A stretch of 64,000 bases of DNA from Escherichia coli (GTDB lineage Bacteria > Pseudomonadota > Gammaproteobacteria > Enterobacterales > Enterobacteriaceae): the NCBI RefSeq assembly GCF_030384885.1, contig NZ_CP128613.1; one strand, written 5' to 3'. The position numbers were made by a program. This document shows, one piece after another, positions 3,001 to 6,000 of this stretch. Position 1 is the stretch's first letter, and every line of letters starts with the position of its first letter.

Positions 3001-6000
3001 CCAGCAGGCTTTCCACTTCCAGATGCCACATAGGGTAGAACAGTGTTGCCGCACCGCCGCGCACACCGCCCTGAGAGCAGGATTTCACTGCCGTCTGGAA
3101 ATGTTTGTAGAACGGAATACAACCGGTGTGGAATGCTTCGCCACCGCGAATCGGGCTACCCAGCGCACGAATACGCCCGGCGTTAATGCCGATCCCGGCA
3201 CGCTGGGAAACGTATTTAACAATCGCGCTGGAGGTGGCGTTGATGGAATCCAGGCTGTCGCCGCACTCAATCAGCACGCAGGAGCTGAACTGACGAGTAG
3301 GGGTACGCACGCCGGACATGATTGGCGTCGGCAGCGAAATTTTAAATGTGGAAACCGCGTCGTAAAAACGCTTCACGTATTGCAGGCGCGTTTCACGCGG
3401 GTAGTTCGAGAACAGGCACGCAGCAACCAGAATATAGAGGAACTGGGCGCTCTCATAGATTTCGCCGGTCACGCGGTTCTGTACCAGATATTTGCCTTCC
3501 AGCTGCTTAACGGCAGCATAAGAGAAGGTCATATCACGGTCGTGATCGATAAACGTGTCCATCTGCTTGAACTCTTCTTCCGTGTAGTCTTCCAGCAGAT
3601 GATTATCGTATTTGCCCATCTCGACCATTTTCACCACGTGGTCGTACAGCGCAGGCGGCTCAAACTGGCCATAGGCTTTTTTACGCAGGTGGAAAATTGC
3701 CAGGCGCGCGGCGAGATACTGATAATCCGGCGCATCACGGGAGATCAGGTCTGCGGCAGCCTTGATAATGGTTTCGTGGATGTCAGAGGTCTTGATACCG
3801 TCATAAAACTGAATGTGGGAGCGCAGCTCGACCTGGGAAATCGAAACGTTATGCAGTCCTTCTGCCGCCCAATCCAGAACGCGATGGATTTTGTCGAGAT
3901 TGATGCGCTCTGTGCTACCGTCGCGCTTTGTCACCAGCAGATTCTGATTCATGTATGTCGTACCTGTTTTTGGAATTCTTTCCGCAATAGCTTCATGCAG
4001 ACTACCTGTAGTGAGGGAAGCTGCTTAGAACACTATATATAGGGGGTATGTTTGGGATTCACTGCAAGATAGTGTGAAAATGGCCCTCTTGCAAGTGCAT
4101 AACTTTGTGGATAACTCAGGAAGGAAAAAGTGGCTTCCGCGCACCTTAGGTCAGACAAGGTATCCGGGAAAGTCAATGGGAAGAGAAAAATTTGTTAAAA
4201 ATAACTGTTCGGCGATTTCTTGAACGGCAGAATAGTATGGGTAAATTGATATAGATGGTTTATTAATCTTGTTGCTAATGATTGCCAAAATTGATCTAAG
4301 CACGAGTCATCACATAATCTGATGTATCAGTTGTGGTCAATATATAAGCGAATGTAAGCGATTGTTGAGTCGAAATGGTTGTTTTATATTCGTTTGTTGT
4401 TAAATACCAAGCCAATTTGTTACTTTTGCATATATTATAAGAATATTATTTATTACTTTAATTCAGTTTAAATATAACCGATTTACCTTAAGGTTATTAA
4501 TTTGAATTATGATACACTGATATTATTCATCAAGTAATAACAAAATAGTCATTGCACCGAGTTATACAATTTACAAAAGAAAGATACCCCATATCACATA
4601 ATGCGATTAAATACGCCTTCTCATAGAAAAGGATGGTTAGGGTAATATGCGGATTATTTTTCTACGTAAGGAATATTTATCTTTACTCCCGTCAATGATT
4701 GCGTCTCTCTTCTCCACTAATGGTATCGCAGCGGTTATTGATTCATGCCAGGGATATGATATCAAAGCGAGCTGTCAGGCCAGCAGGCAAAGCCTTTCAG
4801 GCATTACGCAGGACTGGAGCATCGCCGATGGGCAATGGGTGATTTTTTCGGGTATGGCCAATAATGCCAGCGGTGGCGCCGTATTTTTGCAACAAGGAGC
4901 GGAGTTTTCTCTATCGCCAGAAAATGAAACTGGAATGACTTTGTTTGCCAATAATACTGTCTCAGGAGAATATAATAATGGCGGGGCAATATTTGCTAAA
5001 GAAAACTCAACGATAAATATTGAGAATGTTATTTTCGACAGTAATGTTGCTGGGGGCTATGGCGGAGCAATCTATTCTGCCGGTACCAACGATACTGGTG
5101 CCGCCGATTTACGTATCACTAACGCCGTATTTCTCAATAACATCGCTAATGACGGCAAAGGCGGTGCACTTTATAACATCAATAATGATGTCTATTTAAG
5201 TGATGATGTTTTTAATAATAACCAGGCATATACATCAACAAGTTACAGTGATGGCGTCCGATATCACTGATAATAATAGCGACAGCAAGCATCCATCAGG
5301 TTATACGATAATAAATAACACCGCCTTTACAAATAACACTGCCGAAGGTTATTGCGGGGCAATTTATACCAATAGCGCGACGGCTTCCTATCTTATTGAT
5401 ATTTCAGTTGATGACAGCGACAGCCAGAACAACGGTGTTTTAGTGGATCAGAACAACAGCGCAGCAGGCTATGGCGATGCATCATCGGCGGTGGCGGGAG
5501 GCTTCATGTTCATTGATTCAAGTCAGGTCAGATTTGACATCGCGGCCAATAAAACTCTGGTCATCGGCAACATGAGTAACGATGGTGAGATCGATTCCAT
5601 TGCCGGAAACAGTAGCTAAGTGTTGCTGTTCATAGCACGCCAGCATTAGATCTGAATTATTATCACGAGCCCCATTCGGTGGAAATTGAAGACGGTGGCA
5701 GCAATATCAGCGACGATGCGGCTAAGCAGCGTGGCGTGGCAGAAAGGGAGTAATGATTTTGCCCAGACGGCAGGGTTTTTATCGATGACGATAAAATGGT
5801 AATTGCTGTCCGCCTGGTATTGTTACCGGATGCAGTGCGAGCACTTTATCCGGCCAACAACCTCACTTATTCTGCGTGTGCAGCATATAGTTCACATCGA
5901 CGCCGGGGCCGAGCTTAAAAGTATTAGTGATCGGGTTGTAATGCAGTCCGATCATATGCCGTTCTTTTAGACTGGTCTGATCCACCCAGCCCAGCAATTC

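What the first reader, a model, noticed from the sequence alone, without database searches (positions are those of the whole stretch)
4120..4646. AT-rich tract upstream of the yfaL remnant, which retains start codon and signal peptide
The ~500 bp upstream of the yfaL remnant is visibly AT-rich with phased A/T tracts (ttattaatcttgtt..., aatattatttattactttaattcagtttaaatataacc...), the kind of curved DNA that binds H-NS. The remnant keeps its ATG and a signal-peptide-bearing 207-codon first ORF, so a truncated secreted passenger fragment could still be made if the region is derepressed.
Basis: inference. Interest (0 to 1): 0.3.

Follow-up and report, generated by a model that had tools for sequence, protein, structure and literature searches.

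The report
H-NS-bound nrdA–yfaL spacer, dead adhesin gene
The AT-rich stretch is the already-studied control region between the essential ribonucleotide reductase operon (nrdAB) and the silent adhesin gene yfaL, bound by the silencing protein H-NS in E. coli K-12; here yfaL is a broken remnant, so the finding is real but ordinary.

Summary
The window matches E. coli 2013C-4282 at 100% over the two stretches searched (3953-4646, 4647-5862). Region 4120-4646 lies in the 694-bp divergent spacer between nrdA (1667-3952, -) and a yfaL pseudogene (4647 onward, +).

**Composition.** It is 68.3% AT against a window mean of 48.4%, the most AT-rich stretch of its size in the 64 kb. Phased A-tracts and curvature are only weakly supported.

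**Two modules.**
- 4120-4226 is the distal part of the nrdA regulatory module. It is conserved across Escherichia species and carries HusR boxes, an A-tract element and a Fis-like site.
- 4227-4646 is about 71% AT and fast-evolving. Its sequence cannot be aligned between Escherichia lineages, yet it stays 72-79% AT in all of them.

**Published K-12 data.** The orthologous stretch is a listed "promoter island", H-NS-bound in all three groups' genome-wide binding data sets. It is also an RpoD and H-NS SELEX site. Its predicted yfaL promoter, TTGATC-16-CATAAT, is intact here at 4291-4318.

**The remnant.** It keeps its ATG, a K-12-like signal peptide and a 207-codon ORF. It has lost about 2.5 kb, including the autochaperone domain and most of the β-barrel. 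Any product could reach the periplasm at most.

**Verdict.** Already known biology, low interest.

The parts
1667..3952 (-). nrdA coding sequence (ribonucleotide reductase alpha subunit), transcribed divergently from the tract
   Evidence: ORF list. RefSeq annotation of the identical record.
4001..4076 (-). NrdR box region of the nrdA promoter: box 2 core 4001-4012, box 1 4030-4045, box 0 4060-4076. Context, outside the finding.
   Evidence: Sequence located and near-identical to K-12. Box scheme from PMC12176259. The assignment of the sequences to boxes is mine.
4066..4114 (-). nrdA core promoter and DnaA boxes. The -10 TATCTT is at 4066-4071 and the -35 TTGCAA at 4089-4094, with a 17-bp spacer. 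DnaA boxes are TTATGCACT at 4094-4102 and TTATCCACA at 4106-4114. The inferred start site is near 4059.
   Evidence: Read from the sequence. Invariant across Escherichia species. DnaA boxes upstream of the nrd -35 are described in PMC8203912. The start site is an inference.
4080..4223 (+). ypaB ORF of 47 codons, intact here although not annotated in the source record. It overlaps the nrdA promoter.
   Evidence: Translation shows three substitutions relative to K-12. K-12 annotation. PMC6242692 states that ypaB contains the nrdA promoter.
4117..4167 (.). Two HusR (YnfL) boxes: CAGGAAGGAAAAAGTG at 4117-4132 and CAGACAAGGTATCCGG at 4152-4167
   Evidence: Boxes for the ypaB/nrdA spacer are listed in PMC12844172 Table 1. 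Located. The second box has one substitution relative to K-12 and still fits CnGnnnAnnTnnnCnG.
4183..4225 (.). Distal nrdA upstream element: A-tract block GAGAAAAATTTGTTAAAAATAAC at 4183-4205 (a predicted curvature peak) and a Fis-like site GGCGATTTCTTGAAC at 4211-4225, about -159 from the inferred start site
   Evidence: Invariant or nearly so in all seven Escherichia sequences. Curvature peak. The Fis site 'centred at -156' (Augustin et al. 1994) is recalled from memory, because the paper is not held.
4227..4646 (.). Fast-evolving AT-rich spacer (about 71% AT). It is the bulk of the K-12 'promoter island' and the presumed H-NS nucleation platform silencing yfaL.
   Evidence: Composition. Identity is 0.89 to K-12 and 0.44-0.46 to other Escherichia lineages, which nevertheless keep 72-79% AT here. 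PMC3661553 Table 1, mapped to about window 4163-4695 through.
4291..4318 (+). Predicted sigma-70 promoter pointing at yfaL, TTGATC-16-CATAAT. It implies a leader of about 320 nt.
   Evidence: Promoter scan. The same hexamers and spacing are given for yfaL in PMC3946193 Table 1. Identical in K-12. Start-site activity was not shown.
4647..5270 (+). First ORF of the yfaL remnant: 207 codons, made of the signal peptide, YfaL residues 1-203 and a 4-residue frameshift tail
   Evidence: Pfam Chlam_PMP repeat at residues 127-144. An 11-bp deletion after 5256, at a GATGGCG repeat, causes the frameshift.
5254..5607 (+). Out-of-frame continuation of the passenger domain, homologous to YfaL residues 207-324
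   Evidence: tblastn with K-12 YfaL.
5622..5799 (+). C-terminal remnant (YfaL residues ~1171-1250, in two frames) after an internal deletion of about 2.5 kb covering codons ~325-1170
   Evidence: blastn and tblastn. K-12 YfaL has AC_1 at 794-904 and the Autotransporter beta-domain at 989-1228.
5863..6585 (-). ubiG, the downstream neighbour that bounds the remnant
   Evidence: Annotation of the identical record.

Best explanation
The tract is the divergent control region between nrdAB and yfaL, and it has two parts.

**Part 1, 4120-4226.** This is the distal end of the conserved nrdA upstream module. It carries HusR boxes, an A-tract element and a Fis-like site. It serves nrdAB expression.

**Part 2, 4227-4646.** This is a spacer of about 71% AT that belongs to the yfaL module.
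- It is dense in -10-like hexamers and TpA steps.
- As at the K-12 orthologue, it is expected to bind RNA polymerase and nucleate an H-NS filament.
- That filament would keep the yfaL promoter(s) silent, including TTGATC-16-CATAAT at 4291-4318.
- By its proximity it could also contribute to the reported H-NS repression of nrdAB.

**State of yfaL in this strain.** The gene is dead. It has a ~2.5-kb internal deletion and an 11-bp frameshifting deletion. The silencer therefore now guards only a 207-codon fragment carrying a signal peptide.

**Shown here:** the anatomy, composition, conservation pattern and orthology.

**Inferred from K-12 literature:** H-NS and RNA polymerase occupancy, silencing, and any effect on nrdAB in this strain.
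For: - **Identity of the locus.**
- **AT extreme.**
- **TpA and -10-like density.**
- **Conserved block.** 3953-4226 is 0.88-0.99 identical across Escherichia, against 0.78-0.91 at 4-fold-degenerate sites of nrdA.
- **Variable block.** 4227-4646 is 0.44-0.46 identical across lineages yet remains 72-79% AT.
- **K-12 promoter island.** Island 2342143_534 yfaL/ypaB is H-NS-bound in all the binding studies compared and flagged as foreign DNA by three methods (PMC3661553). It maps to about window 4163-4695.
- **SELEX.** RpoD holoenzyme and H-NS SELEX sites lie in the yfaL/nrdA spacer. The predicted promoter is found unchanged here (PMC3946193).
- **nrdAB repression.** H-NS is named as a repressor of nrdAB.
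- **Native yfaL is cryptic.** Its biofilm phenotype is studied with an inserted constitutive promoter (PMC3764049).
- **HusR.** HusR boxes lie at 4117-4167.
- **Remnant anatomy.**
Against: - No H-NS occupancy, transcript or reporter data exist for this strain, and none could be generated here.
- The published 10-bp high-affinity H-NS motif (TCGATAAATT, recalled from memory) occurs only as two 2-mismatch matches in the tract. It is not enriched there.
- Predicted curvature is unremarkable on average.
- The AT-rich part differs from K-12 at 11% of positions, so site-level conservation of H-NS nucleation points is unproven.
- Divergence from K-12 (0.89) is about neutral (0.907 at 4-fold sites). 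Sequence-level selection on the spacer is therefore not shown.
- The primary paper on H-NS at nrdAB (Cendra et al. 2013) could not be read.
Confidence: 0.78

Rival explanations
1. Neutral relic. In this strain, 4227-4646 is simply the left-over promoter region of a recently killed gene. It has no remaining role. Its AT-richness is inherited, and H-NS binding, if any, is incidental.
For: - The spacer is 100% identical over 4300-4646 to strain R32_14_1F, which has an intact 1252-aa yfaL. The gene's death is therefore recent relative to spacer divergence.
- Divergence from K-12 is about neutral.
- Only 5 of 5,426 complete genomes carry the deletion.
Against: - This does not conflict with H-NS binding, which depends on composition.
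- AT-richness is kept in all Escherichia lineages despite complete sequence turnover. That hints at constraint on composition, or at least a persistent bias.
- H-NS bound here sits within about 170 bp of the nrdA upstream module and is reported to repress nrdAB.
Confidence: 0.3
2. The whole tract is primarily an nrdAB upstream regulatory element. [quoted passage not shown]
For: - The titles of Sun et al. 1994 and Augustin et al. 1994, cited, describe an upstream AT-rich sequence and Fis binding at nrd.
- The block up to 4226 is conserved and contains an A-tract element and a Fis-like site.
Against: - Conservation stops sharply at 4226, about -167 from the inferred start site.
- Beyond that point the sequence cannot be aligned between Escherichia lineages that share a near-identical nrdA promoter.
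- Relatives lacking yfaL next to nrdA (Morganella, strain LSJC7) mostly lack a comparable AT peak: 51-62% AT at 400-600 bp upstream and 32-42% at 600-700 bp, against 63-79% here, although M. psychrotolerans reaches 71% at 300-400 bp.
- At most the first ~107 bp of the finding fit this reading.
Confidence: 0.12
3. The tract works through intrinsic curvature from helically phased A-tracts. The bent DNA would be the specific H-NS recognition feature.
For: - AA/TT periodicity at 10.75 bp lies above shuffles for 4120-4646 (3 of 300).
- Two predicted curvature peaks lie at ~4187 and ~4291. The second is the fifth highest in the 64 kb.
Against: - The periodicity is not robust to the choice of indicator or sub-window, and it is uncorrected for 16 tests.
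- Mean predicted curvature is only in the top 17% of the window.
- The AT-richest core is predicted to be straight.
- Few A or T runs of 4 or more bases are present.
Confidence: 0.1
4. The tract hides an unannotated gene or small RNA.
For: - The 47-codon ypaB ORF is intact at 4080-4223.
- A 50-codon GTG ORF lies at 4151-4303 on the minus strand.
Against: - There is no Rfam match in 3500-7000 apart from a weak sub-threshold naRNA4/REP-like hit at 5812-5855.
- No ORF of 50 codons or more lies within 4304-4646.
- ypaB lies in the conserved nrdA promoter DNA, which explains its conservation without any coding role.
- The sequence turns over completely between lineages.
Confidence: 0.04

Closest known systems
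E. coli K-12 yfaL/ypaB 'promoter island' (Panyukov & Ozoline 2013, PMC3661553), one of 78 in MG1655
   Same: - Orthologous position, immediately upstream of and running into the yfaL start codon.
- Similar length (534 bp in K-12; finding 527 bp) and composition (69.5% AT in K-12, 68-70% here).
- 89% sequence identity in the AT-rich part.
- The same predicted yfaL promoter.
-.
   Different: - Here the downstream gene is a deleted, frameshifted remnant.
- The PlatProm start-point density that defines an island could not be computed.
- 11% of positions differ.
H-NS (xenogeneic) silencing of AT-rich promoter regions of cryptic adhesin genes and other horizontally acquired genes
   Same: - AT content about 20 points above the local average over more than 400 bp.
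- TpA-rich.
- The downstream gene needs an artificial promoter to give a phenotype in K-12.
- Flagged as foreign DNA by three methods.
- H-NS occupancy is reported at the orthologue.
   Different: - The silenced gene is already non-functional.
- The tract abuts an essential, highly expressed operon transcribed in the other direction.
nrdAB regulatory region of E. coli (DnaA, Fis, IciA/ArgP, NrdR, H-NS, HusR)
   Same: - The core promoter, DnaA boxes and NrdR boxes are essentially identical to K-12 just outside the finding (3953-4119).
- HusR boxes and a Fis-like site lie inside it (4117-4225).
-.
   Different: - Only the first ~107 bp of the finding belong to this conserved module.
- The remaining 420 bp do not.
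rcsD-ompC/micF spacer in the same window (32849-33375)
   Same: - It is the second most AT-rich stretch of the window (67.2%).
- It is also a divergent spacer marked 'HNS' in the same SELEX table.
-.
   Different: It drives an abundantly expressed porin gene and an sRNA, not a cryptic gene.

Membership tests
H-NS-bound AT-rich silencing region | AT content far above the genome average over several hundred bp | tested here: met
   68.3% against 48.4%. It is the top stretch of its size in the 64-kb window.
H-NS-bound AT-rich silencing region | H-NS occupancy in vivo or in vitro | not testable with these tools
   Reported for the K-12 orthologue in the three groups' genome-wide binding data and by SELEX. 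Nothing exists for this strain.
H-NS-bound AT-rich silencing region | Derepression of the downstream gene when hns is deleted | not testable with these tools
   No data on yfaL in an hns mutant were found in the papers held. The supplement of Kahramanoglou et al. is not held.
H-NS-bound AT-rich silencing region | High-affinity nucleation motif (tCGATAAATT) or intrinsic curvature | tested here: inconclusive
   Only two 2-mismatch motif matches in the tract (4238, 4289), with no local enrichment. Weak periodicity and average curvature.
Promoter island (PlatProm definition) | At least 8 predicted start points per 100-bp sliding window, sustained for at least 300 bp | not testable with these tools
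   PlatProm is not available. As a proxy, 5 sigma-70-like sites were found against 0.40 +/- 0.70 per 527 bp, and 23 -10-like hexamers against 3.5 +/- 3.6. Both are the highest or nearly the highest in the window, but they equal composition-matched shuffles. The definition is quoted.
Promoter island (PlatProm definition) | Orthology to a listed island | tested here: met
   K-12 island 2342143_534 maps to about window 4163-4695, with 89% identity in the AT-rich part. The coordinate offset of about 1,978 bp between the two MG1655 genome versions is partly from memory.
nrdAB upstream regulatory region | Core promoter with two DnaA boxes and NrdR boxes next to nrdA | tested here: met
   The elements lie at 4001-4114, are near-identical to K-12, and are invariant in Escherichia. 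They lie just outside the finding.
nrdAB upstream regulatory region | Distal activator sites (HusR boxes, Fis site near -156, AT-rich element) | tested here: inconclusive
   HusR boxes are present at 4117-4132 and 4152-4167. A Fis-like site lies at 4211-4225 and an A-tract block at 4183-4205, but their identity with the published sites rests on memory, because the papers are not held.
Functional AIDA-I-type autotransporter YfaL/EhaC | N-terminal Sec signal peptide | tested here: met
   26 of the first 29 residues are identical to K-12 YfaL, and the n/h/c organisation is present. No dedicated predictor was run.
Functional AIDA-I-type autotransporter YfaL/EhaC | Autochaperone domain and C-terminal beta-barrel translocator in frame with the passenger | tested here: not met
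   Codons ~325-1170 are deleted and the reading frame is broken at 5256. K-12 has AC_1 at 794-904 and the Autotransporter domain at 989-1228, whereas the first ORF here has only a PMP repeat.

The most novel reading that the evidence does not exclude
The spacer may be kept AT-rich by selection on composition and not on sequence. It would then be an H-NS and RNA-polymerase platform that also sets the level of the essential divergent nrdAB operon. That role would explain why it stays about 72-79% AT through complete sequence turnover in every Escherichia lineage, and why it could persist after yfaL dies. The pseudogene strains would be natural experiments separating the silencer's two clients.
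Probability: 0.15. Interest if true: 0.35.

Novelty: already known. Interest (0 to 1): 0.1.

Why it matters
It matters little beyond annotation. The tract should be labelled as the nrdAB/yfaL divergent control region and as the orthologue of a known H-NS-bound promoter island. It is not a new element.

Two modest points of value follow:
- The finding splits cleanly at 4226/4227 into a conserved nrdA module and a yfaL-linked spacer conserved in composition only.
- The rare yfaL-deleted lineage (5 of 5,426 complete genomes) gives a natural background for asking whether the AT-rich platform influences nrdAB independently of yfaL.

Tried and rejected
- **Rfam.** A scan of 3500-7000 at E<=1 gave nothing in the tract. 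The only hit was a weak sub-threshold naRNA4/REP-like match at 5812-5855.
- **H-NS motif.** A TCGATAAATT scan with up to 2 mismatches gave 79 matches window-wide against 59.7 +/- 7.8 expected. Only two fall in the tract, so it is uninformative.
- **Terminator-like hairpin.** The hairpin at 4616-4632 (-) is no more than chance (1 found, 0.8 expected).
- **Curvature and periodicity.** Both are weak.
- **Papers not held.** Cendra et al. 2013 (PMC3754748), Sun et al. 1994 (PMC205367) and Augustin et al. 1994 (PMC205060) could not be read. The exact published positions of the H-NS, Fis and 'AT-rich' nrd sites were therefore not checked.
- **Supplement not held.** The Kahramanoglou et al. supplement is not available.
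- **Genome scan.** The single genome-contig scan used a degenerate nrdA-start pattern and returned only 13 loci, from Escherichia, Morganella and a few others. Salmonella, Citrobacter and Klebsiella were not compared.
- **Hidden gene.** The idea was rejected because no ORF of 50 codons or more lies in 4304-4646 and the sequence turns over completely between lineages.
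Full report
**Where the window comes from.** Stretches 3953-4646 and 4647-5862 are 100% identical to E. coli strain 2013C-4282, NZ_CP027579.1. The local gene order is:
- nrdB and nrdA (1667-3952) on the minus strand;
- a 694-bp spacer (3953-4646);
- a yfaL pseudogene on the plus strand;
- ubiG (5863-6585, -);
- gyrA (6732-9359, +).

K-12 has the same order, with an intact 1250-aa yfaL and a 695-bp spacer. The finding (4120-4646) is therefore the yfaL-proximal three quarters of the divergent nrdA/yfaL spacer.

- The region is 68.3% AT, against 48.4% for the window.
- The richest 527-bp stretch in the whole 64 kb is 4170-4696 (70.4%). The next separate locus reaches 67.2%.
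- GC falls to 0.235 at 4401-4600.
- TpA steps number 58, against 23.5 +/- 7.2. Hexamers resembling -10 elements number 23, against 3.5 +/- 3.6. Sigma-70-like promoter matches number 5, against 0.40 +/- 0.70. All are at or near the window maximum.
- They are what the base composition predicts. Dinucleotide shuffles of the region give 3.8 +/- 1.7 promoter-like sites. The TpA count expected from base frequencies is 61.

The 'phased A/T tracts / curved DNA' part is weak.
- AA/TT periodicity at 10.75 bp beats shuffles only for the exact region given (3 of 300, uncorrected). It does not hold for other indicators or sub-windows.
- Mean wedge-model curvature is only in the top 17% of the window. There are two local peaks, near 4187 and 4291. 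The AT-richest core is predicted to be straight (parameters from memory, relative use only).

**Anatomy: two modules.** I aligned the spacer with K-12, another remnant-bearing strain, and four other Escherichia lineages recovered by a genome scan: E. albertii, E. whittamii, Escherichia sp. E1V33 and E. coli SCPM-O-B-8794.

From the nrdA start codon to 4226 the sequence is conserved.
- Identity is 0.88-0.99. Identity at 4-fold-degenerate sites of nrdA for the lineages measured is 0.78-0.91.
- Just outside the finding, this block holds the NrdR boxes, the nrdA -10 (4066-4071) and -35 (4089-4094), and two DnaA boxes (4094-4102, 4106-4114).
- Inside the finding, it holds two HusR/YnfL boxes (4117-4132, 4152-4167; PMC12844172), an A-tract block (4183-4205) and a Fis-like site (4211-4225).
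- The intact 47-codon ypaB ORF (4080-4223) lies within this block. PMC6242692 notes that ypaB contains the nrdA promoter.

At 4227 conservation collapses.
- Identity to the four other lineages is 0.44-0.46, which is about random for AT-rich DNA. blastn finds no match there.
- Every lineage nevertheless remains 72-79% AT over the corresponding 300 bp.
- Against K-12 the spacer is 0.89 identical, about the neutral rate of 0.907.
- In relatives where nrdA is not next to yfaL (Morganella, strain LSJC7), AT is 51-62% at 400-600 bp upstream and 32-42% at 600-700 bp, where the next gene begins.
- The AT-rich block therefore travels with yfaL, not with nrdA.

**What is known about the orthologue.**
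- Panyukov & Ozoline list 'promoter island' 2342143_534, yfaL(-)/ypaB(-), among 78 islands in MG1655. It is marked as H-NS-bound according to all studies they compared (Grainger, Kahramanoglou, Oshima). Three methods associate it with foreign DNA (PMC3661553; definition).
- I converted coordinates with the current MG1655 record and an offset of about 1,978 bp. The island then spans from 48 bp inside yfaL to 485 bp upstream, which is about window 4163-4695.
- Shimada et al. list the yfaL/nrdA spacer as an RpoD-holoenzyme SELEX site that also contains an H-NS site. They predict the yfaL promoter TTGATC-16-CATAAT (PMC3946193). Exactly that promoter is present at 4291-4318 (+).
- H-NS is cited as a repressor of nrdAB (PMC4009431; PMC12176259).
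- A GadEWX ChIP-exo study lists two peaks at the yfaL start, about window 4631-4692. It reports no expression change (PMC4918353). The table is evidently the GadX one.
- The yfaL biofilm phenotype in K-12 is studied by inserting a constitutive promoter in front of the gene (PMC3764049). This is consistent with a silent native promoter.

**The remnant.**
- K-12 YfaL residues 1-203 align to 4647-5255 at 87% identity. Residues 207-324 continue out of frame to 5607. Codons ~325-1170 are missing. The last ~80 codons survive at 5622-5799.
- The frameshift is an 11-bp deletion at a GATGGCG repeat after 5256. It gives the 207-codon ORF 4647-5270.
- Only five of 5,426 complete E. coli genomes share the internal deletion. 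One of the two other carriers examined, MFDS1022581, lacks the 11-bp deletion and has a 327-codon first ORF; 2017-02-2CC shares it.
- Strain R32_14_1F has an identical spacer (100% over 4300-4646) in front of an intact 1252-aa yfaL. The spacer allele is therefore not a product of pseudogene decay.
- The first ORF keeps a K-12-like signal peptide and one PMP repeat. The autochaperone domain is deleted, and of the β-barrel region that K-12 YfaL carries at 794-904 and 989-1228 only the last ~80 codons survive, out of frame.
- From the established mechanism of type Va secretion, such a fragment could be exported by Sec to the periplasm. It could not cross the outer membrane.

**Mechanism.**
- *Best supported (confidence ~0.78).* Block 4227-4646 is a composition-defined H-NS and RNA-polymerase platform. 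It silences the yfaL promoter(s) and may contribute to H-NS repression of the neighbouring nrdAB promoter. Block 4120-4226 is part of the nrdA activator module.
- *Shown here.* Anatomy, composition, conservation and orthology.
- *Inferred.* Occupancy and silencing in this strain.
- *Rivals.*
  - A functionless relic. This is compatible with recent pseudogenisation and a neutral rate against K-12.
  - A purely nrdAB element. This is contradicted by the sharp loss of conservation at 4226.
  - Curvature-driven recognition, for which the support is weak.
  - A hidden gene or RNA, for which there is no support.

**Comparison and novelty.**
- The tract is the orthologue of a catalogued K-12 promoter island and H-NS site. 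It sits beside one of the best-studied E. coli promoters.
- It fails membership only as a functional autotransporter locus.
- Nothing here would surprise a specialist.
- The one mildly interesting point is that AT-richness is preserved through complete sequence turnover next to an essential operon. The evidence does not distinguish selection on composition from bias.

**Dead ends.** Three primary papers and one supplement were not available. The H-NS motif scan was uninformative. The genome scan returned only 13 loci, so enterobacteria outside Escherichia and Morganella were not compared.

Noticed in passing
window 32849-33375: This is the second most AT-rich 527-bp stretch of the window (67.2%). 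It is the rcsD-ompC spacer, which holds the micF/ompC control region. The same SELEX table also marks it 'HNS'.
   Followed up: partly
window 4080-4223 (+): The 47-codon ypaB ORF is intact, with three substitutions relative to K-12 (T2A, S20P, C28Y). It is not annotated in the source record NZ_CP027579.1, although it is annotated in the other four genomes examined here (TG1, R32_14_1F, MFDS1022581, 2017-02-2CC). It lies entirely in conserved nrdA promoter DNA.
   Followed up: partly
window 4647-5862; loci L004, L005: The ~2.5-kb internal yfaL deletion is shared by only 5 of 5,426 complete E. coli genomes. The 11-bp frameshifting deletion is present in 2013C-4282 and 2017-02-2CC but absent from MFDS1022581; the other two carriers were not checked. 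Identity between carriers is mosaic, with 100-bp bins ranging from 0.85 to 1.00. This suggests recombination after the deletion arose.
   Followed up: partly
L009 (E. coli SCPM-O-B-8794) and L007 (E. albertii), region upstream of nrdA: The yfaL 5' region and AT-rich spacer of one E. coli genome resemble the E. albertii allele. Both are about 76% identical to the window in the yfaL coding region, and their spacer sequences are similar. Yet that genome's nrdA promoter block is 97% identical to the window. yfaL and its spacer therefore look like old allele classes exchanged across species boundaries.
   Followed up: partly
window 5812-5855 (-): A weak, sub-threshold Rfam match to naRNA4 (28.9 bits against a gathering score of 59.5) lies between the yfaL remnant and ubiG. 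It is probably a REP-type palindromic element.
   Followed up: no
window ~1521-1666 (nrdB-nrdA spacer); L001 against L002: The nrdA-nrdB spacer is 146 bp in this strain but 233 bp in K-12 TG1. In MG1655 that spacer carries the tiny annotated ORF yoaM. This is an indel of about 87 bp.
   Followed up: no
window 4631-4692: Two ChIP-exo peaks from the K-12 GadEWX study, evidently for GadX, map onto the yfaL start codon region. The study reports no expression change in the mutant.
   Followed up: partly
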